A stretch of DNA of 21,128 nucleotides from Leptolyngbyaceae cyanobacterium RM1_406_9. Lineage in GTDB: Bacteria > Cyanobacteriota > Cyanobacteriia > Elainellales > Elainellaceae. The notes under the pieces were generated by a model. It worked only from the letters and a program-made list of their open reading frames with translations. It was not told the origin of the DNA and did no database searches. Below, piece after piece: positions 773 through 17,542 of the stretch (the first letter of the stretch is position 1; every line of letters begins with the position of its first letter). The stretch spans positions 1-21,128 of the forward strand of contig JAAUQZ010000074.1 of the NCBI GenBank assembly GCA_012033355.1, in the 5' to 3' direction. The position numbers and the translations under genes are program-made.

Positions 773-1612
773 TTACAACTTTTGTCCTGTACTTAGGGGT
801 TGGCAGGTTGGGCAGTAGTAATATCGCCGCCCGCCCGAAAATTCTTTAACAATGGCTGTGCCACAGACATAACAGGGTTTATCGACTCGATTGAACACAT
901 AATGGCGGTATTCCTGGCGCTTTTGTCCCTGGGTTTTGAGTTGCGCGACAAACTCCAGGTCATTGGTAATTCCACCCGTTTGATAGGACTGACGGCTGAC
1001 TGAGAGAACCGCTTCTGCCAGAGCAGCAATTTGCTCAGGGGAACAGTCAGTAGGGCGGCGAGTGGGATGAATTTTGGCGACAAACAAGACTTCGCTGCGA
1101 AGGTAGTTACCCAAGCCACAGAAAAAGCCTTGATCGAGCAATAGAGATATGAAGCTGCGGCGGTAAAAGCGTTTGTCTTGGATATGGGCGATCGCCTGCT
1201 CAACCGTAGTCGCCTCATCCAACACATCGAGTCCCAACTTGCTGAGAAACGGGTGCATGAAAATTTCAGGTTCGGTTAAAACCTCGATATCAGAAGCGCT
1301 GTAGAGCAAGGCTGACTTTTTTTCGTTGTGAATCGCCAGCCGAAGCTGACGATTGGTCGTAGGGTAAGAATGGGCATCTCGAATCACCCATTTACCGTAA
1401 AGCTGATTGTGGCTGTAGATGCTGAATCCGTTGTCAAAGCCGAGCAGCATTGCCTTTCCTTTGGCGGTGACGGATACAACTTTTCTGCCCTTCAGCTTAG
1501 ATTCGTAGGGTTTGAGCCGCTCGAAAGCAAAGAAGATCTCGGTGACGGGGCGATCGCCAATTGCCTTTGCAATCTGGTCCGCCGCTCGTTTAATTTCGGG
1601 TCCTTCTGGCAT
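773..1612 (-). CDS. nei: Endonuclease VIII (Nei), Fpg/Nei family DNA glycosylase/AP lyase
   Basis: 279 aa. The N-terminus is MPEGPEI (catalytic Pro2/Glu3). Internal motifs YSHNQLYG, LLYSASDIE and LLLDQ.F..GLGNYLR.E, plus a C-terminal CxxC...CxxC zinc finger, are collinear with E. coli Nei as I recall it. Confidence 0.9.
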   Translation of the reverse strand: MPEGPEIKRAADQIAKAIGDRPVTEIFFAFERLKPYESKLKGRKVVSVTAKGKAMLLGFDNGFSIYSHNQLYGKWVIRDAHSYPTTNRQLRLAIHNEKKSALLYSASDIEVLTEPEIFMHPFLSKLGLDVLDEATTVEQAIAHIQDKRFYRRSFISLLLDQGFFCGLGNYLRSEVLFVAKIHPTRRPTDCSPEQIAALAEAVLSVSRQSYQTGGITNDLEFVAQLKTQGQKRQEYRHYVFNRVDKPCYVCGTAIVKEFSGGRRYYYCPTCQPLSTGQKL

Positions 1613-2266
1613 TTACAGCACACCTTTGGAGCTGGGGATGGTATGGGCGCGACGCGGATCAACCTCAATCGCCATTCTCATCGCCCGCGCAAACGCCTTG
1701 AACGTTGCCTCAATGATGTGGTGAGAATTGATCCCATCCAGTTGGCGAATGTGTAGCGTCATTTGGGAATGGTTGACAATTGCCACAAAAAACTCGCGCA
1801 CCAGTTGCGTATCGTAAGTGCCAACCCGCTCCGTAGGAATTTGTAAGCCGTAGCTGAGGTGAGGCCGTCCCGAAAAATCTAGCGTCACCTGCACGAGGGC
1901 TTCATCCAGGGGTGCTAGGAAATGCCCGAAACGGACGATGCCTTTGCGATCGCCCAATGCCTTTGCCAACGACTGACCCAGCGTAATCCCCACATCTTCA
2001 TTCGTGTGGTGGTCATCGATTTCCAGATCGCCCGTTGCCTGCACATCCAGGTCAATCAGCCCGTGTGAGGAGATCTGGTGCAGCATATGATCTAAAAACG
2101 GAATTCCCGTTGCTGCCGAGCAAGTTCCCTGTCCGTCAAGATTCAGGCTCACCTGCACGTCTGTCTCACCCGTTTTGCGGCTAACGGAGGCCATTCGAGC
2201 AGGCAATTCTAAATTGAAGGAAGGAAGTTTTTCTGAGGAAGTCGCTGCGAAGTCGCGGGTTTGCAT
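1613..2266 (-). CDS. hisB: Imidazoleglycerol-phosphate dehydratase
   Basis: The 217-aa ORF contains [35 protein letters not shown] and HHIIEA.FKA.ARA, which are canonical HisB motifs. The true start may be the internal Met at 2194 ([12 protein letters not shown]). The stop codon directly abuts the nei start. Confidence 0.93.
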
Positions 2267-2409
2267 GAACCTGAGCCAAATTTTCTAATTGTCTAAGCTC
2301 ATTAATTGTAAAACCCAGCGCTCAGATCTGCGACTTCTCGAAGAAGTTGCAGATCTTGTTTGCTCATGAATAGGCAGAAGGCTTAGTTCCAATGGCACTG
2401 ACGTAAGCG

Positions 2410-2470
2410 GCTTTCTTTGCCCTGGAATCAATTCCAGGTAATCGATTAAGTCCGTTAAAACTGAGAGTTG
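2410..2470 (+). repeat. Partial copy of the roughly 146-bp structured repeat (central palindrome plus part of the next hairpin)
   Basis: CCCTGGAATCAATTCCAGGTAATCGATTAAGTCCGTTAAAACTGA resembles the core of 2482-2627, and lies immediately upstream of the full copy. Confidence 0.6.
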
Positions 2471-2481
2471 GCACTAGTTTA

Positions 2482-2627
2482 GTCTGTTACCCAACGCCCC
2501 GCCCTGGAATCAATTCCGGGCTAACAGCTTAAGTCAGTTGAAACTGACTCAACCATCCACTGAAAAACCGTTCCAACTTGTTTTAACGAGTTTTAGCTTT
2601 GAGCCTGAGATTGATCTCAAGGCTCTA
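2482..2627 (+). repeat. Roughly 146-bp hairpin-rich dispersed repeat, copy A
   Basis: It aligns by eye at roughly 85% identity with the reverse complement of 9223-9369. Shared elements are the palindrome CCTGGAATCAATTCCGGG, the hairpins GTC(A/C)GTT..AAC(T/G)GAC and AACT(T/C)GTT-tt-AACGAGTT, and a nearly identical 3' 60 nt (..TTTTAGCTTTGAGCCTGAGATTGATCTCAAGGC). The first 30 nt or so recur at 546-580. Confidence 0.85.
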
Positions 2628-2918
2628 GAGCGATGCCTCCAGCCGTTGATACAAGCTCTCATTTAAGGTGGATTGCATCTACAGCTCCCCGATCTCCCCA
2701 TTCGTTAAAGCTGATTAAGCAGACTTTGCAGACGTTCTAATTCTGCATCAACTGCTGCATCGAGGAGAAGGAGTGTTTGAGGGTTCAGCACTGGGAAGTT
2801 GCGACTGGGGTACTAGCCAACGACACTCCAAGCCTAAGCGCAACTGACCTGGAATATTTAATGGGAATTACGCAGATTTCTCTGATCTTTAAGAAGTTTT
2901 CGTCAACTTGAAGCCCTA

Positions 2919-3021
2919 AGGATTGTGGATCAAATAATCTGTAAAACCAGAATCTCTGTAGGGACATGGCATTGCCGTGCCCCTACACAGGAGAATTACA
3001 CATTAATAAATCCACAATCCT
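2919..3021. repeat. Nested palindromic element: a 12-bp perfect outer IR enclosing a GTAGGG..CCCTAC hairpin
   Basis: AGGATTGTGGAT (2919-2930) pairs with ATCCACAATCCT (3010-3021). The inner imperfect 14-bp stem is 2957-2970/2974-2987 (TGTAGGGACATGGC att GCCGTGCCCCTACA). Confidence 0.7.
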
Positions 3022-3099
3022 AAGCAGCGTGAAAAATTGGACGGTTCAACAAACCTTACTAGAGGATATTCAAAAAACAGCCCATACCCCAAGAATACG

Positions 3100-3170
3100 T
3101 AGGGGCATAGCATTCGGCAGATAGACGCTGGAACAAACCTAAGGATTCTTGCCCGAATGCTACGCCCTTA
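3100..3170. repeat. Second GTAGGGGCA-type inverted repeat (about 21-bp arms, 28-nt spacer)
   Basis: TAGGGGCATAGCATTCGGCAG (3100-3120) pairs with TTGCCCGAATGCTACGCCCTTA (3149-3170), with 2 mismatches and 1 indel. CCTAAGGATT at 3138-3147 is a direct repeat of 2915-2924. Confidence 0.65.
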
Positions 3171-3205
3171 CAGGAACTCGCTGCTTTTCAACCATTCTCT
3201 TAAAG

Positions 3206-3982
3206 TTACATTCCCATGATGGCGTAGCCCGAATCGACGTAGAGAATCTGTCCCGTGATGCCACTGGAAAGGTCACTTGCCAGGAAAGCAGCCGTATTGC
3301 CGACTTCGGTTTGAGTTACCGTGCGGCGCAGGGGGGCAATTTCCTCAACGTGGTGGATCATGTCTAAGATGCCGCCAACAGCCGAAGAAGCCAGGGTGCG
3401 AATGGGGCCAGCGGAGATCGCATTGACACGGATATTTTGGGGGCCAAGCTCGGCGGCGAGATAGCGGACGTTCATCTCCAGGGCGGCTTTGGCAATTCCC
3501 ATGACGTTGTAGTTGGGGATAACGCGAACGCCGCCTAAATAGGTCAGGGTAATGATGCTACCGCCTTCGGTCATGAGTGGGCTGGCGGCGCGGCTAAGCT
3601 GCACCAGTGAATAAGCGCTGACTTCCAGGGCGAGGTTGAATCCAGCACGAGAGGTTTTACTGAAATCACCTGTCAGGTCATCTTTGTTGGCAAAGGCGAG
3701 GCAGTGAATCAGGATGTCGAGCTTGCCCCACTTCTCCTGAACCGTTGCAAAGGTTGACTCGATCTGCTCATCGTTTTGCACGTCGCAGGGCAGAAACAGA
3801 CTGGGCTGGAGCGGCTCTACCAGTTCTGCCACTTTCTTTTCATACCGTCCTTTTTCGTCGGGCAGAAAAGTTACGCCCAGGTTAGCTCCAGCTTGGTGAA
3901 GCTGTTGGGCGATTCCCCAGGCGATCGAGCGGTTATTGGCGATGCCTGTGACGAGAGCGTTTTTGCCAGTCAAGTTCAGCAT
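3206..3982 (-). CDS. fabI: Enoyl-[acyl-carrier-protein] reductase (NADH), FabI
   Basis: MLNLTGKNALVTGIANNRSIAWGIA is the Rossmann/FabI N-terminus. The downstream motifs LDILIHCLAF, Y...K (AYSLV...MGIAKAALE) and ISAGPIRTLA are also present. The ORF is open to 4015, but the Met at 3982 gives the canonical N-terminus. Confidence 0.93.
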   Translation of the reverse strand: MLNLTGKNALVTGIANNRSIAWGIAQQLHQAGANLGVTFLPDEKGRYEKKVAELVEPLQPSLFLPCDVQNDEQIESTFATVQEKWGKLDILIHCLAFANKDDLTGDFSKTSRAGFNLALEVSAYSLVQLSRAASPLMTEGGSIITLTYLGGVRVIPNYNVMGIAKAALEMNVRYLAAELGPQNIRVNAISAGPIRTLASSAVGGILDMIHHVEEIAPLRRTVTQTEVGNTAAFLASDLSSGITGQILYVDSGYAIMGM

Positions 3983-4232
3983 GGGAATCTGTGGAAAATC
4001 TTTATTTAGGCGCAACTAGGAGAATACTGGAAAACGAGGATCGAAGGATAGAGTATGAATTTTGATATGGCTGTTTTACTTTGGAGCGATCGCCTTGTAA
4101 TCTAGATAACATAAGCCTTTCAAGTTCCTTCATCAAAGCTCAAACCTGGCTTGTTTTTGAGTGAACTGAATGCTGCCAAAGCAAAGTTGGGTGAATTTAC
4201 GGACGAGCTTTCGATACAGCTTGGCAAATTAT

Positions 4233-8677: not shown

Positions 8678-8881
8678 TTACTTGCCCAATGTACTCCAGT
8701 CTACATCCAGACCTTCAAGCAGCAAGGAAGAATTATAAATTTGCAGAATGATCAGCAAGAACACGAAAAATAAACCCATGAAGACCGCCATCAGCGGTGT
8801 CGTTCCCCAACCGGGAGCAACTTTACCGTATTCAGAGTTTAGAGGTTTGAGGATATTTCCCAACCGAGTCTGTTGTGCCAT
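8678..8881 (-). CDS. psbH: Photosystem II reaction-centre protein H
   Basis: 67 aa. The sequence is [52 protein letters not shown], the canonical PsbH sequence with a single TM helix. Confidence 0.95.
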
Positions 8882-10103: not shown

Positions 10104-10685
10104 ATGATTGCTCAAACTGAGACAAAACACTACACCATTGATGAATACCTGGAACTCGAAATCGCGTCAGAAACGCGCAGTGAATACTGTGATGGAGAAA
10201 TCATTCCAATGACTGGTGGAACACCCAACCACAATGATATCGCTGGGAACCTATACATCCTTCTTAAATCCGCGCTCAAGGGGAAAAATTACCGGACTTT
10301 TTATGCCGATCAACGGCTCTGGATTCCAGATGTCAGCCTCTATACCTATCCCGATGTGATGGTTCTACCTAAACCGCTAGAACTTCAAACTGGGCGCAAA
10401 GATACTGTTGTGAACCCTTGTTTTATAGCTGAAGTGTTGTCTAAGTCCACTCAAAACTACGATCGCGGTGAGAAATTTGTTGCCTATCGGACAATTCCCA
10501 CCTTCCAAGAATATTTGCTGATTGACCAATACTGCATACACGTTGAGCATTATGTTAAAACAGCCGCTCATCAATGGCTATTTTCGGAATACGATGACCC
10601 AACTGTTACTCTTTCTTTAAGCACCTTTGAGTTTCAAATTCAGATTGCAGAACTTTACGACAATATTGACTTTTCAACTGTTTGA
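10104..10685 (+). CDS. Uma2 family (DUF820) PD-(D/E)xK-like endonuclease
   Basis: 193 aa. YTIDEYLELE...SEYCDGEI..MTGGTPNHNDI..NLY..L, the later ...YPDVMVL and ...NPCFIAEVLS.ST...D...K...Y follow the Uma2 pattern that is abundant in cyanobacteria. Confidence 0.85.
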   Translation: MIAQTETKHYTIDEYLELEIASETRSEYCDGEIIPMTGGTPNHNDIAGNLYILLKSALKGKNYRTFYADQRLWIPDVSLYTYPDVMVLPKPLELQTGRKDTVVNPCFIAEVLSKSTQNYDRGEKFVAYRTIPTFQEYLLIDQYCIHVEHYVKTAAHQWLFSEYDDPTVTLSLSTFEFQIQIAELYDNIDFSTV

Positions 10686-11170: not shown

Positions 11171-14100
11171 GTGTCTACCTTCTACGGTCGGGCAGAAGAG
11201 TTAGCCACGCTGAAGCAGTGGATTTTAGGAACCCAGACCCGTCAGCCCTGTCGCCTGGTTGCAATGCTGGGAATGGGCGGCATTGGCAAAACCTCTTTGT
11301 CGGTAAAACTGGCGCAAGAGATTGTAGAAGGGGTCGGAGGAACGGAGTCTCCCCATCGTTCTTTTGAGTTTGTGATTTGGCGATCGCTCCGCAATGCTCC
11401 TCTAGTCGAAGACATTCTCGCTGACCTCATCCGAGTCCTTTCTAACGAGCAGGAAACGGAAGCGGATTTATCCAAAGATCTCAGCAGCAGGATTACTCGG
11501 CTGATTCACTACCTCCGGACTCACCGTTGCCTACTGGTGTTAGACAACGCAGAAACAATTTTGCGCGGCGGTGACTATGCCGGATATTATCGCGAAGGCT
11601 ATGAGGGCTATGGAGATTTGCTGCGGCGGGTAGGAGAAGTAACTCACCAAAGCTGTCTGGTGATCACCAGTCGAGAAAAACCGAGGGAGTTTGTCTCTCT
11701 AGAAGGCGATACATTGCCTGTGCGATCGCTCAGTCTGATTGGCTTACGGGTCTCTGACGGACAGGAAATTCTCAGGGCAAAAGGTGAGTTTATTGGGTCT
11801 GAAGCCGAACTGGAGGCACTCACCGATCGCTATGCTGGAAACCCACTGGCGCTAAAGATTGTTGCCACCACGATTCAAGACTTGTTTGATGGCAGCATTG
11901 CCGAATTTTTAGCGCAGGGCACGGCCGTCTTTGATGACATTCGCACTCTGCTGGTCCAGCAGTTTAGCCGCCTGTCAGACCTGGAGCGGGAAATTATGCA
12001 CTGGCTGGCAATCGATCGGGAACCCGCTGCGTTTAGTGATTTGCAGGAAGATCTGCTGGTGCCTGTAACCAAAACACAGCTCATTGAGGCGATCGGCTCT
12101 TTGCGGCGGCGATCGCTGATTGAGAAAGCAACGGTTACAGGGGGCGATCGCCAGTCCAACAGCTACACGCAGCAGCCCGTTGTGATGGAGTATGTGACTG
12201 AACGGTTGGTCGAGCAAACTTGCCAGGAAATTCTCACTGGAAAGCTCTCACTGTTTATCACCCATGCCCTGCTCAAAGCCTCAACCAAAGACTACATTCG
12301 GGAAAGCCAAATTCGGATTATTTTAGAGCCGACTATTGCTCAACTCCTGTCCACACTGCGGACAAAGCCAGATGTTGAGCAAAAGTTAAACCAGGTTTTG
12401 GAAAAGTTACAGGAATTGGCTGACCAGAGTGGCTATGGTGGCGGCAACTTGATTAACCTGTATCGGCAACTTAAAACCGACCTGACAGACTATGATTTTG
12501 CTCAAATCAAAGTGCAGCACGCCTACCTGCCCGATGTAAACCTGCATCGAGTTGATTTTACCGACGCGGATTTGGCGAAATCTGTGTTTGCTCAAACGCT
12601 TGGCAGCATCTTGTCAGTCGCCTTTAGCCCCGATGGAACGCTGCTGGCAACCAGCGACGAAGACGGCGAAATTCGCGTTTGGCAAGTGACAGACGGCAGG
12701 CAGCTTTATACCTGTCGGGAACATACAGAGTGGGTTTGGTCAATTACCTTTAGCCCAGACGGGGAAACAATCGCCAGCAGCAGCAAAGACCAAACCGTGC
12801 GACTGTGGGACTCTGCAACGGGACAGTGTTTTCAGGACTTGCAAGGGCATACGGGCTGGGTTTGGTCTTCTGCTTTTAGCCCCGACGGCCAAACCCTGAT
12901 CAGCGGCAGCGAAGACCAGACGGTGAAACTATGGAATATTCACTCCGGAGACTGTCTCAATACCTTTGAAGGGCACCTGGGCGGAGTCTGGTCAGTGGCA
13001 TTTAGCCCCGATGGTCAACGGTTTGCCAGCGGGGGTGTCGATCAAACCGTGCGGCTGTGGGAGGTAAAAACCGGGAAATGTCTCCTGCTGGAAGGGCATA
13101 CAAATCGGATTCGTTCGATTGTTTTTAGTCCTGATGGTCAGCTTTTGGTCACGGCAGGCGATGACCAATCGATGCGATTCTGGCAGGTTAGCACAGGGAA
13201 ATGTTTGCACGTTGCACCTCACGATAGCCGCATCTGGTCGGTGGCATTTAGTCCGGATGGGGAATGGGTGGCGATCGCCAGTGACGACCAGACCATTAAA
13301 CTTTGGGAAGTCCGCACCCGTCAGTTTTTTAGAACCTTTCAAGGGCACAGCAGCCGAGTTTGGTCCGTGGCATTTAGTCCTGACAGTCAAACACTCGCCA
13401 GCGGCAGCGACGACCAGACGATTCGCCTCTGGGAAGTCCACAGTGGGCAGTGCCTCCGCAGCTTCCAGGGACACAATAACTGGATCTGGGCAGTTGCCTT
13501 TAGCCCTGACGGAAACTCCCTTGTCAGCGGTGGTGAAGATCGAGCAGTGCGGCTATGGGATCTTCAAACTGAGAAATGCTTCAAGGAATTGCGAGGCCAC
13601 ACCGGACGCATCTGGTCGGCCGCCTTTAGCCCCAATGGTCAGATTCTTGCTAGCGGCAGTGATGACCAAACCATCAAACTGTGGCAGGTGAAAACTGGAC
13701 GCTGCCGCGCGACCTTGCGCGGACACACACGCCAGGTGCGGCTAATTGCGTTTAGCCCAGAGGGTCAGCTCCTCGCCAGTGCCAGCGGCGATCGCACTGT
13801 CAAACTTTGGGAAGTCAGCACCGGGGAATGCCTCAAAACCCTTCGGGGACACGCAAGCTGGCTCTTTTCCGTTGCCTTCAGCCCCAATGGAAAACGGTTG
13901 GTAACGGGCAGCGATGACCAAACTGTGCGGCTGTGGGATGTGAATACGGGGGAATGTCTAACCGTGTTAGAAGGACACAGCAAAATTGTGCTATCGGTTG
14001 CCTTCAGTCCTGATGGCAAAACGGTTGCCAGCAGCAGCGATGACCAAACCATTCGACTTTGGGATGCTGACACCGGGGAATGCATTCACACCATTTCCCA

Positions 14101-14455
14101 GGAAGCAGGCTGGGTGCAGGTTGTCGCTTTTAGCCCCAGCATAGAATCGCCAATTCTCGCTAGCAGCGGCAATGACCAGATGATTAAACTGTGGGAGATG
14201 GGTCAGACGGAGTGCCTGAAGCAGTTGCAAGGGCATGGAAAAGCTGTGAATGCGATCGCCTTTAGCCCCAATGGTCAATTTCTCGTTTCCGGCAGCGAAG
14301 ACGAAACCATCAAACTCTGGCAGGTCAACACTGGAGAATGTCTCAAAACCCTCAGAGCCAAACGCCCTTACGAAGGCATGAATATTACGGGTACAACTGG
14401 ATTGACTGCCGCTCAAAGGGCGACTTTGAGAGCATTGGGGGCAGTAGAGTTTTGA
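11171..14455 (+). CDS. STAND (NB-ARC/AP-ATPase-like) P-loop NTPase with 14 C-terminal WD40 repeats
   Basis: FYGRAEEL...[11 protein letters not shown] is the Walker A (nt 11270-11293), and CLLVLDNAE is the Walker B. GNPLALK and a winged-helix-like region follow. Fourteen units of about 42 aa then run across 12602-14359 ([41 protein letters not shown]). The tail is [16 protein letters not shown]...L.ALGA. The annotated GTG start at 11171 is probably an artefact of the split from 10800-11108. Confidence 0.9.
12602..14359 (+). repeat. Intragenic tandem array: 14 WD40-encoding units of about 126 bp
   Basis: I counted the repeats from the translation. Unit lengths are 42,42,42,41,41,42x7,44,40 aa. 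This predicts two 7-bladed propellers. Confidence 0.85.
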
Positions 14456-14499
14456 TTGCTGAATTAGTCAAAATACTGACAGCAAACTTTCCTTACACT

Positions 14500-15309
14500 A
14501 TGGGTGATTCCCTCTCTATGACTCCATACTCCCTTCTCAAGCAAGCTCAGCGACAGCGAGTGAGTGATGGGCAACACGTTTCCATTGTGGATGGATGTGA
14601 TTCCGCTGATCGCCTCCTGGTGATGGTGCTGCCTCAACTGGGTGACTTTGATAGTCTTGAGTATATCTGGTGGCTACAACGGTATGCGGAACAGTTGCAG
14701 TCTCTCAAGCTAACCATTCGCGCCGTAGGAATTGGCGATCGCACGTCAGGAGAACAGTTTTGTCGTTACACCAACTTCTCCCCTGAGAGACTATTTGTTG
14801 ATCCGACGGCAGAACTGCATCAACAGTTGGGTCTGTATTCGGGGTTATCCCTCAAGCTACCTGCTCTTTCCCCCGCTCAAACTGCCTGGTTAAATTTGAT
14901 GTTAATGTGTGCTGGGGTTGGCAGTCCCGGTACGCTGGCAGAAGTGTTTCGAGGGTATCGGGGCGATCGCAACGCACCTCAACTCATTGCCGATGATGAA
15001 ATAGTGAAAGCGTCTCCCCTGCCTGCTTTCAAAGGCTCATTCTTTAAGCTAGCTGGAGGCACAGGATTTCAGCGCCCCTTTGAGTTGGCAACCCTGCGAC
15101 TACGAAACATGACAGAAGTTTTGAGTCACTGGAAAATCTATGTTCCCAACGCCGCATACCTCACCCAACGAGGGGGAACATTCCTATTCAATAGCAATGG
15201 CGATTTGCTCTATGAGCATCGAGACCAGGGAATCTTGGGCTTTGCTGCCGATATGAGCAACCCGCTATCGTTTTTGTTGGAGAATCTATCTCTTCTACAA
15301 CCTCAGTAA
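14500..15309 (+). CDS. AhpC/TSA_2-like (PF13911-type) thioredoxin-fold protein lacking the canonical Cys
   Basis: LLVMVLPQLGDFDSLEY...IRAVGIGD....F....F....LFVDP...L...LG, and the C-terminal QRGGTFLF...GDLLYEHRDQGILGFA, match my memory of the peroxiredoxin-like family. The start is set at ATG 14500 (alternative 14518). The track ORF start at 14338 overlaps the WD40 gene. Confidence 0.65.
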   Translation: MGDSLSMTPYSLLKQAQRQRVSDGQHVSIVDGCDSADRLLVMVLPQLGDFDSLEYIWWLQRYAEQLQSLKLTIRAVGIGDRTSGEQFCRYTNFSPERLFVDPTAELHQQLGLYSGLSLKLPALSPAQTAWLNLMLMCAGVGSPGTLAEVFRGYRGDRNAPQLIADDEIVKASPLPAFKGSFFKLAGGTGFQRPFELATLRLRNMTEVLSHWKIYVPNAAYLTQRGGTFLFNSNGDLLYEHRDQGILGFAADMSNPLSFLLENLSLLQPQ

Positions 15310-15332
15310 GCCAGATATCGTTGTGATCTTGT

Positions 15333-15383
15333 AGGTTAAGACAAGGGAGGCGGAGCCTAGCCCCGCCTCCCTTGTCTTAACCT
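15333..15383. terminator. 21-bp perfect GC-rich stem-loop between convergent genes (putative bidirectional terminator)
   Basis: AGGTTAAGACAAGGGAGGCGG (15333-15353), loop agcctagcc, CCGCCTCCCTTGTCTTAACCT (15363-15383). It lies 24 nt after the stop at 15309 and 22 nt after the minus-strand stop at 15405. There is no flanking T-run on either strand. Confidence 0.6.
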
Positions 15384-15404
15384 GAACGATTAGCCCTCTA
15401 GCAG

Positions 15405-16547
15405 TTAGTTTGGTTGCGAATCTGGATAATCGAGATATTTCAAATCACCTATGGATATAGAGCGCAACCCTGATTTCTCTTCTAGAAAGATTGCTCCATT
15501 TTTGATCAACTCAATCTTCAGCTTCTCAGGTACTCCAAGATTTTGACCAAACTTAGCAAGCTCCACGTTTGCCTCCTCTAAGGCTGCGTTTCTCAGGTTA
15601 GCGCCCTGCAAATCAGCGCCCTGTAAGTTAGCACCTTGCAGGTTAGCGCCTTGCAAATCAGCACCTCGCATATTGGTTTCCCGCAGTTGAGCATTGTTTA
15701 GATCAACACAACTCAAGATACTGCTGCTTAAATCAGCAAAGCTCAAATCACTTTCACCTAAGTTAGCAAGACTCAAGTTAGCGCCTCGAAGATCTGCGTA
15801 TCTCAAATCAGCCCCGCTGAGTTTAGTGAAACTAAGCGAAGCACACGTTAATATGGCTCTTTGCAGATTGCAACGCCGCAAATCGGCTCCTCGTAAAACA
15901 GCGCTGCTCAAATCAACTCCCTCCAGGTTTTTGTCTTGCAGCTTGCGAGTAGCCAGGTCATTTCTAGTGTCAATTCCAAACAAATTCAAATCGAACTTGC
16001 CCTTCATCTGCAAACTGTCGTCTAACTCCTTAAAATCCTGCAAATTGCTGGTTAACAGGATAGGTCGCTCTGGATTCTGGAAAAGCTCCTCCAAATTTTG
16101 GCGCTTGGTAAAATCATTCGCTGTTAAAACCGACAGATTAGCGCCAGCAAAGTTGTTGGGATAAAGGGTGATGATTGCACTAAGGTTCTTGGCGCTTGCA
16201 CAGGCTACCTCAACCGCACAATCGGTGTTTTGAATGCAAGACTGACGGGCTTCTTCTATGGATTTTGAGGTGATGTAAATGATGCGATCGCGCAAAAACA
16301 CCCTGATCATAGACACTGCCTCCTGACCTGCTTGCTCATCGAGTTTGCTGAGATAAAACCCAACTTTCTGCAAGCAATAGTCTGTAATATAGGCTCGAAT
16401 CTTTTGAAGTTGAACTAGCTGCAAAAGCTCCTCAGTATCTTCTATACATTTACTGGAATTGGTGAAGTACTGCAAAATCACATCAGTACTAATCAAAACT
16501 CCTATTTTTAGCGAATCTTCACAGGAACCAGGTAAAGACTGATTCAT
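15405..16547 (-). CDS. PIN-like N-terminal domain fused to a pentapeptide-repeat beta-helix domain
   Basis: 380 aa. Residues 15-140 or so show a PIN_3-like pattern: IGVLISTDVIL (Asp22), AYITDYCLQKV (Asp56), NTDCAVEVACASAKNLSAIIT (Asp109), with the usual fourth acidic position read as LYPNNF. Residues 198-332 or so hold about 25 A(D/N)Lxx pentapeptides (ADLRGANLSLANLGESDLSFADL...GADLQGANLQGANLQGADLQGANL). The last 50 aa or so are unassigned. Confidence 0.8.
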   Translation of the reverse strand: MNQSLPGSCEDSLKIGVLISTDVILQYFTNSSKCIEDTEELLQLVQLQKIRAYITDYCLQKVGFYLSKLDEQAGQEAVSMIRVFLRDRIIYITSKSIEEARQSCIQNTDCAVEVACASAKNLSAIITLYPNNFAGANLSVLTANDFTKRQNLEELFQNPERPILLTSNLQDFKELDDSLQMKGKFDLNLFGIDTRNDLATRKLQDKNLEGVDLSSAVLRGADLRRCNLQRAILTCASLSFTKLSGADLRYADLRGANLSLANLGESDLSFADLSSSILSCVDLNNAQLRETNMRGADLQGANLQGANLQGADLQGANLRNAALEEANVELAKFGQNLGVPEKLKIELIKNGAIFLEEKSGLRSISIGDLKYLDYPDSQPN

Positions 16548-16621
16548 ACTGCACTCCTACAAAAATCTAAGAACAGCGCTGCTGAGTTTTCAACAACGCC
16601 AAAACTTAATTTCTTTCTTTG

Positions 16622-16918
16622 TTACTTAGATCCCCATCGCTGACGCATCTCTCGCAAATCTTCTAAGGAGAAACTTCCAGCTTTTGTATCGTCTGCTTCG
16701 GGGTCTGGAACGTATTCAATTAACTGCTGAAGGTCGCAGCCTAACACCTCACACAACTTTAGGAACTTCTCGATCTGATCCACTCCCGACTTTCCACTTT
16801 CCCAATTCTGAATGGTGTTTGTGGTGACACCCACAAGAACAGCCAATTGAGCCTGAGTTAAGCCCGTCTTATCTCTAAGAGTTGCGATCCTCGAAACGGC
16901 CTTTTTGCGTTCAGACAT
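16622..16918 (-). CDS. XRE-family (HTH_3) transcriptional regulator, putative antitoxin or repressor of the downstream PIN-like gene
   Basis: 98 aa. LRDKTGLTQAQLAVLVGVTTNTIQNWESGK is a textbook Cro/C1-type HTH. The gene lies 74 nt upstream of, and co-oriented with, 15405-16547. Confidence 0.85.
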   Translation of the reverse strand: MSERKKAVSRIATLRDKTGLTQAQLAVLVGVTTNTIQNWESGKSGVDQIEKFLKLCEVLGCDLQQLIEYVPDPEADDTKAGSFSLEDLREMRQRWGSK

Positions 16919-17014
16919 GATTACCTACTGTATTAGTTCCCCAAAAAAATTTAGTAGTCTATCACACAAAAAATATTTTGCCCTCAATCAGGTTAACATA
17001 TTGTGCAGATTGGC

Positions 17015-17034
17015 AAACCAAAAATTTTTGGTTT
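17015..17034. promoter_or_regulatory. 20-bp perfect palindrome in the divergent promoter region (candidate operator)
   Basis: AAACCAAAAATTTTTGGTTT is exactly self-complementary. It lies 97 nt upstream of the XRE start at 16918 and 32 nt upstream of the ATG at 17066. Confidence 0.45.
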
Positions 17035-17065
17035 ATTATGTTAGTGCGACTATTGGGTTAGGTTT

Positions 17066-17323: not shown

Positions 17324-17542
17324 ATGATGTCACCCTTTAACAAGGCTCCAATGCAACCTTATTTCTGCTCCTTTGATAATGAAGCGGTGGTGGGCGAGGT
17401 AGTTCAACAGGGAAAGATTTGGCGGGTCAAATATGAGGGAACCTGGTGGACTGCTCGCAGTGTGCAGCCATTAATCCTCAACCCGGGCGATGTGGTTTAC
17501 GTGGTGGGTAGGCAAAGAATTACGCTGATCATTCAGCCTTAA
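17324..17542 (+). CDS. NfeD-like OB-fold protein (C-terminal domain only)
   Basis: GKIWRVKYEGTWWTARS....L.PGDVVYVVGRQRITLIIQP fits the NfeD C-terminal pattern (G.V.f.G..W.A.s....i..G..V.V....G..L.V.P). Confidence 0.6.
   Translation: MMSPFNKAPMQPYFCSFDNEAVVGEVVQQGKIWRVKYEGTWWTARSVQPLILNPGDVVYVVGRQRITLIIQP

What the first reader, a model, noticed from the sequence alone, without database searches (positions are those of the whole stretch)
15405..17034. XRE-HTH plus PIN-like/pentapeptide-repeat fusion: a toxin-antitoxin-shaped module with an unusual effector architecture
Two co-oriented minus-strand genes sit 74 nt apart. The first is a 98-aa Cro/C1-type HTH protein. The second is a 380-aa protein whose first 140 aa or so read like a PIN_3-type nuclease fold. 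It has beta1 IGVLISTD, ITDYCLQKV and NTDCAVEVACASAKNLSAIIT, which supply three of the usual four acidic positions. The fourth position reads LYPNNF instead of T.D.DF. The residues from about 198 to 332 form an uninterrupted pentapeptide-repeat (Rfr/Qnr-like) beta-helix of about 25 units. Small HTH plus PIN is the standard VapBC-like layout. A PIN domain welded to a DNA-mimicking pentapeptide helix is not a combination I know to have been characterised. Possible readings are a nuclease targeted to a DNA-binding enzyme such as gyrase or a polymerase, an inactivated PIN acting as a sensor or adaptor, or an abortive-infection-type effector. The module is delimited downstream by a 21-bp perfect hairpin. 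Upstream is an AT-rich divergent promoter containing a 20-bp perfect palindrome.
Basis: partly seen in the sequence, partly recalled or inferred. Interest (0 to 1): 0.75.

Follow-up and report, generated by a model that had tools for sequence, protein, structure and literature searches.

The report
XRE repressor plus degenerate PIN–pentapeptide protein
This is a real two-gene, toxin-antitoxin-shaped operon from a cyanobacterium: a small DNA-binding repressor followed by a VapC-fold PIN domain fused to a pentapeptide-repeat helix. It belongs to an uncharacterised cyanobacterial family in which the PIN domain is constant and the tail is swappable, and in this copy the PIN catalytic centre is degenerate.

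Summary
The two co-oriented minus-strand genes, the 74-nt gap, the XRE HTH, the PIN-like N-terminus, about 25 in-register pentapeptide units, the downstream hairpin and the 20-bp upstream palindrome are all present.

The N-terminus is a genuine VapC-fold PIN_3 domain. Pfam is borderline for this protein alone, but 113 of 114 family members match. The AlphaFold model has pLDDT 94.7 and its top Foldseek hits are all VapC/FitB.

The architecture is uncharacterised but not unique. An exhaustive search finds 244 representative proteins with this PIN domain fused to variable C-terminal modules: pentapeptide, DUF1822, sigma-factor pieces, phycobiliprotein, GUN4 and others. The pentapeptide fusion arose repeatedly.

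A conserved XRE partner with an Arg/Trp-rich tail sits upstream in at least 11 independent loci. An exact ACCAAA-N4-TTTGGT operator lies upstream of it in 7 lineages and nowhere in 609 kb of control loci.

The canonical β1 Asp is Ser here, and four other near-invariant family residues are also lost.

The genes are under strong purifying selection (18 synonymous to 2 non-synonymous changes). Most likely this is an autoregulated VapBC-like module with an attenuated or inactive PIN, in which the pentapeptide helix is the working part. It is a new variant of a known kind, of moderate interest.

The parts
17015..17034 (.). 20-bp perfect palindrome AAACCAAAAATTTTTGGTTT, with core ACCAAA-N4-TTTGGT at 17017-17032. 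Predicted operator of the XRE repressor.
   Evidence: Found. The exact core motif lies upstream of the orthologous HTH gene in L001/L002, L004, L005, L007, L008/L009, L014 and L019. It occurs 0 times in 609 kb of unrelated XRE loci. It fills the spacer of the best sigma-70-like match, which is on the + strand (17010-17039).
16940..16955 (-). Second, degenerate copy of the operator motif (ACTAAATTTTTTTGGG, 2 mismatches), 22-37 nt upstream of the HTH start codon.
   Evidence: 3 matches at up to 2 mismatches against 0.07 expected. This is weak evidence on its own.
16622..16918 (-). 98-aa XRE/Cro-C1-type HTH protein. Predicted autorepressor and PIN-binding partner (antitoxin-like).
   Evidence: Pfam HTH_31 and HTH_3. 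It is 63-81% identical across loci whose PIN domains share only 31-59% identity with the window's. There is 1 synonymous and 0 non-synonymous difference from the sister MAG.
16631..16675 (-). C-terminal tail of the HTH protein (aa 82-96, GSFSLEDLREMRQRW). Predicted PIN-docking segment.
   Evidence: F83, L85, L88, R92, R94 and W95 are invariant in 5 partners, and the tail is kept in the partial L003 partner. The docking role is inferred by analogy with VapB/FitA tails, whose complexes are the top structural neighbours of the PIN domain.
16575..16600 (-). Intergenic RNA hairpin (11-bp stem, 4-nt loop) followed by a U-rich tract at 16561-16574. Possible attenuator between the two genes.
   Evidence: Fold of -20.6 kcal/mol, z = -2.4. 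It is conserved in L001 with a perfect stem, z = -4.5. All three window mismatches relative to L001 are G.U-compatible on the sense strand. It is absent in other family loci, where the gaps are 0-43 nt.
16068..16505 (-). PIN_3-type, VapC-fold domain (aa 15-160) with a degenerate catalytic core: S20, Q26, S31, N107, C110 and N132. D22, D56, D109 and E113 are kept.
15963..16067 (-). Linker or extension (aa 161-195), partly conserved in the family up to about aa 180.
   Evidence: Column statistics. phmmer matches extend to aa 150-190 in many members.
15543..15962 (-). Pentapeptide-repeat beta-helix (aa 196-335): 25 canonical plus 3 degenerate units in one register.
   Evidence: NCBIfam Qnr, MfpA and HetL models score far below their cutoffs.
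15405..15542 (-). C-terminal cap region (aa 336-380, ...FGQNLGVPEKLKIELIKNGAIF...) plus the stop codon.
   Evidence: It has no Pfam match. The same motif ends P0002 and an unrelated HTH-pentapeptide protein, P0019, so it belongs to the pentapeptide cassette.
15326..15390 (.). Long inverted repeat between the convergent AhpC/TSA_2 gene and the PIN-pentapeptide gene. Possible bidirectional transcript-end structure.
   Evidence: z about -8 on both strands. It is unique in the window, identical in L007 and has no U-tract.

Best explanation
The two genes form an autoregulated, VapBC-shaped operon. It belongs to a cyanobacterial family built from three parts: a conserved small XRE repressor, a constant N-terminal PIN_3 (VapC-fold) domain, and a swappable C-terminal module, which here is a pentapeptide-repeat beta-helix with its cap.

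Shown by computation:
- the PIN fold;
- the family and its variable C-termini;
- the conserved upstream XRE partner with a conserved tail;
- the conserved ACCAAA-N4-TTTGGT palindrome upstream of the XRE gene;
- strong purifying selection on both genes.

Inferred:
- The XRE dimer binds the palindrome and represses the operon, and possibly also the divergent promoter that the palindrome overlaps.
- Its Arg/Trp-rich C-terminal tail docks on the PIN domain, as VapB and FitA tails do on VapC and FitB.
- In the window/P0002 subclade an RNA hairpin with a U-tract between the genes lowers expression of the downstream gene.
- In this protein the PIN catalytic centre is degenerate. Ser replaces the canonical beta1 Asp, and E26, R31, D107 and S110 are also lost. 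I therefore predict that it is a poor nuclease or not one at all. The PIN would serve mainly as the partner-docking and oligomerisation module. The pentapeptide helix would be the working surface, binding a nucleic-acid-handling protein in the way DNA-mimicking pentapeptide proteins do.
For: - Gene pair and domains.
- Family: 244 representatives at E<=1e-3, and 113 of 114 hit PIN_3 with diverse C-terminal domains.
- Fold: AF2 pLDDT 94.7 and pTM 0.89. Foldseek top hits are VapC2, FitB and other VapCs, with probability 1.0 and TM 0.62-0.70.
- XRE partner upstream in the window, P0002, P0106, P0121, P0176, P0129 and P0125, and in L013, L014, L016 and L018.
- The partner is more conserved than the PIN domain, and its tail has invariant F, L, L, R, R and W.
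- Operator: exact in 7 lineages and absent from 609 kb of controls.
- Intergenic hairpin conserved, with G.U-compatible changes.
- Degenerate core: the window differs at 5 of the 10 best-conserved polar columns. D20 equals the canonical Asp by hhalign, probability 98.8.
- Pentapeptide-fused members are enriched for degenerate cores: 9 of 13 against 30 of 101, Fisher p = 0.010.
- Purifying selection: 18 synonymous to 2 non-synonymous codon differences, and 1 to 0 for the HTH gene.
Against: - No experiment exists on any member, so toxicity, neutralisation, DNA binding and nuclease activity are all untested.
- Four acidic residues (D22, D56, D109, E113) remain near the predicted active site and could form a non-canonical centre. 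I could not inspect the model coordinates.
- N at position 132 is normal for the whole family (N in 55 members, D in 27), so that substitution alone says little.
- The enrichment test ignores phylogenetic non-independence.
- The tail-PIN contact rests on analogy only.
- No convincing sense-strand promoter was found.
- The target of the pentapeptide helix is unknown. Qnr, MfpA and HetL models all score far below their cutoffs.
Confidence: 0.6

Rival explanations
1. Classical active toxin. The PIN domain is a working RNase (VapC-like toxin) neutralised by the XRE antitoxin. The pentapeptide helix targets or tethers the nuclease to a DNA-binding enzyme or a ribonucleoprotein.
For: - VapC fold and TA-like operon with a conserved operator.
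- Most family members keep a full set of conserved acidic residues: D20, D22, E26, D107, E/D109 and E113.
- The window protein still has D22, D56, D109 and E113.
- Strong purifying selection includes the PIN part, at 4 synonymous to 1 non-synonymous.
Against: - The canonical beta1 Asp is Ser, and D107, E26 and R31 are lost in the window protein; P0002 shares the S20, position-31, N107 and position-110 changes but keeps E26.
- Inactive VapC structures in the PDB are exactly D7A/D7N/D98N mutants (titles).
- The literature states that four acidic residues are required.
Confidence: 0.25
2. Conflict or abortive-infection sensor. The family is a polymorphic defence system in which the variable C-terminal module senses an invader and the PIN domain, or release of the XRE repressor, delivers the response. 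The modules include pentapeptide 'DNA mimic', sigma-factor pieces, phycobiliprotein and GUN4. This overlaps with the best explanation rather than excluding it.
For: - The layout of a constant module plus rapidly varying C-terminal modules matches the repertoire described for cyanobacterial conflict systems (PMC7159879 and PMC8195603).
- Polyphyletic module swapping.
- C-terminal census.
- Tandem paralogues in L011, IS66 next to L001 and a CyanoTRADDas_TM neighbour in L010.
- No synteny between the window and L001 outside the module.
Against: - PADLOC has no hit for the effector.
- No phage-challenge data exist.
- The window neighbourhood is mostly housekeeping genes: AhpC-like, methyltransferase, transketolase-like, Pth and TatA.
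- The module is not found on viral contigs, which is neutral for a host defence gene.
Confidence: 0.25
3. An ordinary regulator-target pair with no toxin logic. The XRE protein simply regulates a pentapeptide-repeat protein that has a housekeeping or structural role, and the PIN domain is a relic.
For: Cyanobacteria encode dozens of pentapeptide proteins with non-toxic roles (established knowledge). The catalytic core is degenerate.
Against: - The PIN domain, not the pentapeptide part, co-occurs with this XRE subfamily, whatever the C-terminal module.
- The PIN domain is still under purifying selection.
- It stays 59% identical between the window protein and P0002.
Confidence: 0.12
4. Assembly or gene-calling artefact that joins a PIN gene to a pentapeptide gene.
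For: The window is a MAG contig.
Against: - The same 380-aa ORF is 99% identical in an independent MAG.
- The same architecture occurs in at least 13 diverged representatives from many samples.
Confidence: 0.01

Closest known systems
VapBC / FitAB type II toxin-antitoxin modules (PIN toxin with an upstream DNA-binding antitoxin)
   Same: - The small DNA-binding protein is encoded first and the PIN protein second.
- The domain has the VapC fold, with top Foldseek hits 3zvk, 2bsq and 5x3t.
- A palindromic operator lies upstream.
- The partner has a conserved basic C-terminal tail.
   Different: - The partner is an XRE HTH rather than AbrB, RHH or Phd. HTH partners accompany about 16% of TA-associated PIN domains (PMC5499597).
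- The PIN is fused to a 185-aa pentapeptide cassette.
- The canonical S1 Asp and S4 acid are missing.
- The partner is more conserved than the 'toxin'.
- Toxicity is untested.
Pfam PIN_3 (PF13470), clusters PIN_3.1 and PIN_3.COG1569 of Matelska et al. 2017
   Same: 113 of 114 family members hit PIN_3. hhalign to a PIN/PIN_3 stand-alone protein gives probability 98.8 over the whole domain.
   Different: The family has its own signature (VLvDADliLE.F.NR ... DFESAvEvaCA ... AIVT.NP.NF) and variable C-terminal fusions. The window protein itself scores just under the Pfam cutoff as a full-length sequence.
Qnr / MfpA / AlbG-type DNA-mimicking pentapeptide-repeat proteins
   Same: It has an uninterrupted right-handed-helix-type repeat of about 27 units. 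NCBIfam Qnr and MfpA models give weak matches.
   Different: Scores of 36-47 bits lie far below the cutoffs of 240-360 bits. It has no Qnr loops and an extra N-terminal PIN domain. No link to gyrase is known.
Cyanobacterial 'constant module + variable C-terminal module' conflict proteins (TRADD-N, EACC and TIR fused to pentapeptide, TPR or GUN4; Kaur, Burroughs, Iyer and Aravind 2020/2021)
   Same: The repertoire of variable modules is the same: pentapeptide, DUF1822/TPR, GUN4 and ECF-like HTH. The most similar pentapeptide cassettes sit on TIR_2, TRADD-like_N and kinase proteins.
   Different: The constant module here is a PIN_3 domain paired with an XRE gene. This combination is not described in those papers. 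No STAND, caspase or vWA partner is present.

Membership tests
PIN domain, PIN_3 type (PF13470) | Match to the Pfam model at or above the gathering score | tested here: inconclusive
   The score is 24.5 bits on the full protein (below 27) and 27.5 bits on aa 1-141 alone (at or above 27). 113 of 114 relatives match, with a best E-value of 1e-24.
PIN domain, PIN_3 type (PF13470) | VapC-like alpha/beta/alpha fold with a five-strand parallel sheet | tested here: met
   The AF2 model has pLDDT 94.7 and pTM 0.89. About the first 30 Foldseek PDB hits are all VapC/FitB/PIN proteins, with probability 1.0 and TM 0.6-0.7.
PIN domain, PIN_3 type (PF13470) | Conserved acidic residues after S1, at the N-terminus of H4 and after S4, plus a fourth (at least four needed for activity) | tested here: not met
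   The S1 position is Ser20 (family D in 104 of 114). The S4 position is Asn132. D107 is replaced by N. D56 and D109 are present. The criterion comes from PMC5499597.
Type II toxin-antitoxin system, VapBC-like | Small DNA-binding partner gene immediately upstream, co-oriented and conserved across homologues | tested here: met
   The gap is 74 nt. The partner is conserved in at least 11 independent loci. A minority clade uses DUF2442 instead.
Type II toxin-antitoxin system, VapBC-like | Autoregulation through an operator in the promoter region | tested here: inconclusive
   The conserved exact palindrome ACCAAA-N4-TTTGGT is present. Binding and repression are not testable here, and no clear sense-strand promoter was found.
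Type II toxin-antitoxin system, VapBC-like | Toxicity of the second protein and neutralisation by direct binding of the first | not testable with these tools
   This needs expression and interaction experiments. Only the conserved tail hints at binding.
Pentapeptide-repeat proteins (PF00805) | Tandem A(D/N)LXX units in one register forming a beta-helix | tested here: met
   Pfam E-value 1.4e-47. There are 25 canonical and 3 degenerate consecutive units.
Qnr/MfpA quinolone-resistance pentapeptide proteins | Score at or above the NCBIfam family cutoff | tested here: not met
   Qnr scores 36 bits against a cutoff of 240, and MfpA 46.7 bits against 360.
XRE / Cro-C1 HTH regulators (PF01381, PF13560) | Match to the HTH models above the cutoff | tested here: met
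   HTH_31 scores 46.1 bits (cutoff 27) and HTH_3 scores 44.1 bits (cutoff 23).
Catalogued anti-phage defence systems (PADLOC-DB v2) | Effector matches a PADLOC model | tested here: not met
   The PIN-pentapeptide protein and relatives P0002, P0122, P0125 and P0129 have no hit. Only generic HTH hits appear for the partner.

The most novel reading that the evidence does not exclude
The family may be a polymorphic 'integrated-decoy' or 'address-label' system of cyanobacteria. A constant XRE-controlled PIN module would be fused to copies or mimics of host machinery parts: sigma-70 regions, phycobiliprotein, GUN4, and DNA in the form of a pentapeptide helix. These modules would act either as bait for phage proteins that attack those parts, or to dock the module on a specific cellular machine. 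In the window protein, whose PIN is degenerate, the pentapeptide DNA mimic plus release of the XRE repressor would be the whole signalling device.
Probability: 0.15. Interest if true: 0.8.

Novelty: new variant of a known kind. Interest (0 to 1): 0.5.

Why it matters
If the model is right, this locus is an entry point to an unstudied cyanobacterial family of at least 244 sequence clusters. The family combines TA-style control (an XRE repressor, an exact conserved operator and a VapC-fold domain) with modular C-terminal domains, an organisation so far described for other conflict-system scaffolds.

It offers a natural series for asking how a PIN toxin becomes a non-catalytic adaptor. Some pentapeptide-fused members keep the canonical core and others, like this one, have lost it.

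It also offers a defined operator and repressor pair that could serve as a genetic tool in cyanobacteria.

If the module is instead a plain TA pair, the finding is a modest extension of VapBC diversity.

Tried and rejected
- The word-indexed homologue search with the N-terminal 181 aa found nothing. With a 28-sequence profile it found only 3 proteins. The exhaustive HMMER search was needed.
- Single-sequence AlphaFold of the full protein was useless, at pLDDT 35.
- Sequence and profile searches of the PDB gave no significant PIN hit. Only the fold comparison worked.
- hhalign of the family against a single Shigella VapC sequence aligned only the IIVTNNTREF segment, so residue mapping rests mainly on the bridge protein P0270.
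The single-protein genome scan returned only the sister MAG.
- PADLOC, PHROGs and NCBIfam gave nothing for the PIN part.
- Rfam found no RNA family in the region.
- Viral contigs hold neither the XRE subfamily nor the PIN family, so a phage origin is not supported.
- The downstream hairpin was considered as a repeated element, but it is unique in the window.
- The intergenic -35/-10-like match at 16593-16564 was considered as an internal promoter. Promoter-like matches in the region are at chance level.
Full report
**1. What is in the sequence**

The window is a contig of a Leptolyngbyaceae cyanobacterium MAG. The 380-aa protein is 100% identical to an NCBI entry from 'Leptolyngbyaceae cyanobacterium RM1_406_9', whose longest contig is 21,128 bases.

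Two co-oriented minus-strand ORFs are present exactly as described. One spans 16622-16918 (98 aa) and the other 15405-16547 (380 aa), and they are separated by 74 nt.

The small protein is an XRE/Cro-C1 HTH, with HTH_31 at 6e-12 and HTH_3 at 2e-11.

The large protein has a pentapeptide-repeat region with Pfam E-value 1.4e-47. It consists of 25 canonical in-register units at aa 211-335, preceded by three degenerate units at aa 196-210.

The downstream inverted repeat lies at 15326-15390. It has a 20-bp perfect core and folds at -55 kcal/mol with z = -8.3. The 20-bp perfect palindrome lies at 17015-17034. Both are real. The palindrome sits in a stretch of GC 0.33, against about 0.45 nearby.

**2. 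Is the N-terminus a PIN domain?**

Yes. For this protein alone Pfam is borderline. PIN_3 scores 24.5 bits on the full sequence and 27.5 bits on aa 1-141, against a cutoff of 27, but the match covers profile positions 2-111 of 115.

An exhaustive phmmer search with aa 1-195 found 244 representative proteins at E<=1e-3 and 99 at E<=1e-10. Nearly all match from about aa 17 to aa 150-180. Of 114 members scanned, 113 hit PIN_3, with a best E-value of 1e-24.

An AlphaFold2 model of aa 14-160, built on a 28-sequence family alignment, reached pLDDT 94.7 and pTM 0.89. Its top Foldseek hits in the PDB are all VapC or FitB toxins, such as 3zvk, 2bsq, 5x3t and 5ecw. They have probability 1.0 and TM 0.62-0.70.

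**3. The catalytic centre**

The family has ten strongly conserved polar columns: D20, D22, E26, N30, R31, E39, D107, S110, E113 and T127. The window protein has S20, Q26, S31, N107 and C110, so five of the ten are changed.

Its closest relative, P0002, shares S20 and N107 and also deviates at positions 31 and 110 (F31, A110). It keeps E26.

hhalign of the family against a canonical stand-alone PIN, P0270, which matches both PF01850 and PF13470, gives probability 98.8. It places D20 on the canonical beta1 Asp (CDTN), D22 on the Asn of that motif, DFES on DFED, and position 132 on the Asp of KDF.

The short alignment to Shigella VapC puts position 132 on E119. I confirmed that sequence against PDB entry 3tnd.

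The window protein lacks the acids after both S1 and S4. [quoted passage not shown]

N at position 132 is, however, the family norm (N in 55 members, D in 27), so that substitution alone says little. D22, D56, D109 and E113 remain, so a non-canonical site cannot be excluded. I could not reach the model coordinates to measure geometry.

Pentapeptide-fused members deviate from the core consensus more often than the rest: 9 of 13 against 30 of 101, Fisher p = 0.010. That test is not corrected for phylogeny.

**4. The gene is functional**

An independent MAG, Leptolyngbyaceae SM1_4_3 (locus L007), carries the same operon. The large gene differs at 18 synonymous and only 2 non-synonymous codons (N144D and M181V). 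The HTH gene differs at 1 synonymous and 0 non-synonymous codons. The degenerate PIN is therefore maintained by selection and is not decaying.

**5. The architecture is one variant of a modular family**

After the constant PIN domain, family members carry a range of modules:
- pentapeptide repeats (13 of 114);
- DUF1822 (10);
- phycobilisome-protein domains (3);
- sigma-70 region 4 (3), plus region 2 and ECF-like pieces;
- Pepco, GUN4, FHA, ThiS, NfeD, C39 peptidase and WecG;
- nothing recognisable.

On a tree of the PIN domains the pentapeptide state needs about 9 changes. Most pentapeptide-fused members have a non-pentapeptide nearest neighbour. The cassette has therefore been swapped repeatedly.

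The most similar pentapeptide cassettes in other proteins are attached to TIR_2, TRADD-like_N, Ser/Thr kinase, HTH_3 and ion-channel domains. The C-terminal cap motif (..FG.N.G......L...GAIF) recurs in an unrelated HTH-pentapeptide protein.

This layout of a constant module plus a variable C-terminal module, and this repertoire of modules, is what Kaur, Burroughs, Iyer and Aravind describe for other cyanobacterial conflict systems (PMC7159879 and PMC8195603). Those papers do not describe a PIN_3 plus XRE version. I found no paper on a PIN-pentapeptide fusion.

**6. The XRE partner and its operator**

An orthologous HTH gene lies directly upstream of the PIN gene in all of these loci:
- P0002 (L001/L002);
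- P0106 (L003, partial);
- P0121 (L004);
- P0176 (L005, a PIN-only protein);
- P0129 (L008/L009);
- P0125 (L010, a PIN-sigma-like protein).

Probing the metagenome collection with the HTH alignment recovered eight more loci of this HTH subfamily. Four have a family PIN gene immediately downstream (L013, L014, L016, L018). Two have PIN-like N-termini below the HMM threshold. One is disrupted, and one is an HTH fused to an unknown region.

A minority clade (P0269, P0165) uses a DUF2442 gene instead.

The HTH protein is more conserved than its partner. It is 81, 72, 63 and 64% identical to the window's in L001, L004, L005 and L008. The matching PIN domains are 59, 43, 31 and 37% identical. Its C-terminal tail SFSLEDLRxLRxRW has invariant F83, L85, L88, R92, R94 and W95.

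The palindrome core ACCAAA-N4-TTTGGT occurs exactly, upstream of the HTH gene, in seven lineages: the window/L007, L001/L002, L004, L005, L008/L009, L014 and L019. It occurs nowhere in 609 kb of unrelated XRE-containing loci. It is the predicted operator.

In the window it fills the 18-nt spacer of the best sigma-70-like match. That match is on the + strand and points toward a small NfeD-like ORF. The repressor may therefore act on both directions. I did not find a convincing sense-strand promoter.

**7. Intergenic hairpin**

The 74-nt gap folds into an 11-bp hairpin followed by a U-rich tract. L001 has the same hairpin with a perfect stem. The three positions that differ are G.U pairs on the sense strand in the window. 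This argues for an RNA-level element, possibly an attenuator that lowers expression of the second gene. Other family loci have gaps of 0-43 nt and lack it.

**8. Mechanism proposed**

The XRE dimer binds the palindrome and autoregulates. This is inferred from the conservation of the site.

Its basic, aromatic tail docks on the PIN domain. This is inferred by analogy with VapB and FitA tails in the complexes that are the closest structural neighbours.

In canonical-core family members the PIN is probably an RNase toxin or effector.

In this protein the centre is degenerate. I expect little or no nuclease activity, with the PIN acting as the docking and oligomerisation module and the pentapeptide helix as the functional surface. 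Its target is unknown. Qnr, MfpA and HetL models score far below their cutoffs.

I put about 0.6 on this composite. The family and TA-like organisation is near 0.85, and the 'attenuated PIN' step about 0.55-0.6.

**9. Rivals**

- An active targeted nuclease: 0.25.
- A conflict or abortive-infection sensor with variable sensing modules: 0.25. This overlaps with the best explanation.
- A plain regulator-target pair: 0.12.
- An assembly artefact: about 0.01, refuted by the independent occurrences.

PADLOC, PHROGs and NCBIfam do not recognise the PIN part. The module is absent from viral contigs.

**10. Verdict**

The locus is a new variant of a known kind: a VapBC-like module with an XRE partner and a PIN_3 domain. 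It belongs to an uncharacterised modular cyanobacterial family, and this copy carries a pentapeptide cassette and a degenerate catalytic core.

Interest is moderate (0.5). The most novel reading not excluded is an 'integrated decoy' or 'address label' family, at probability about 0.15.

Noticed in passing
window 8779-8840 (+): Rfam match to the Plastid-psbN 5'UTR RNA family, just above its gathering score (51.1 against 50 bits, E = 1.5e-6).
   Followed up: no
window 11171-14455 (+) and 10104-10685 (+): A 1094-aa ORF has an NTPase-like N-terminus and a long run of WD40-type repeats (GH...[10 protein letters not shown]), read directly from the translation. It is preceded by a Uma2-family putative endonuclease. 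This looks like a typical cyanobacterial STAND-type protein.
   Followed up: no
window 14338-15309 (+): As listed from its first ATG, the AhpC/TSA_2-family ORF overlaps the end of the WD40 ORF by 118 nt, so its true start is probably further downstream.
   Followed up: no
window 17010-17039 (+) and 17324-17542 (+): The best sigma-70-like match of the region (TTGGCA-18-TATTAT) is on the + strand, and the 20-bp palindrome fills its spacer. It points toward a 72-aa NfeD-like ORF. One PIN-family member has an NfeD domain fused to it, which may be coincidence.
   Followed up: partly
L011:2-454 and L011:622-1620: Two paralogues of the PIN family lie in tandem on one short metagenomic contig.
   Followed up: partly
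L010 (Symploca sp. SIO2D2 MAG), 1106-4161: An XRE gene and a PIN fused to an ECF-sigma-like region sit next to a CyanoTRADDas_TM gene and a separate PF01850 PIN gene pair.
   Followed up: partly
P0134 aa 135-241: This family member has its PIN domain followed by an RpoD region-2-like segment. That segment also matches the sigma-factor component MzaA of the MZA anti-phage system in PADLOC and NCBIfam.
   Followed up: no
L006:62-1368 and L012:1048-3324: A sub-clade of the same PIN family is paired with an upstream DUF2442 gene instead of the XRE gene. In L012 a DUF4160 gene lies further upstream.
   Followed up: partly
L017:1438-1997: The HTH gene of this subfamily is truncated before its tail and is followed by short transposase-like ORF fragments rather than a PIN gene. 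This looks like a decayed copy.
   Followed up: no
L019:2450-3229: The HTH of this subfamily continues in frame into about 147 further residues with no PIN-family HMM match. The exact operator lies upstream at 2373.
   Followed up: no
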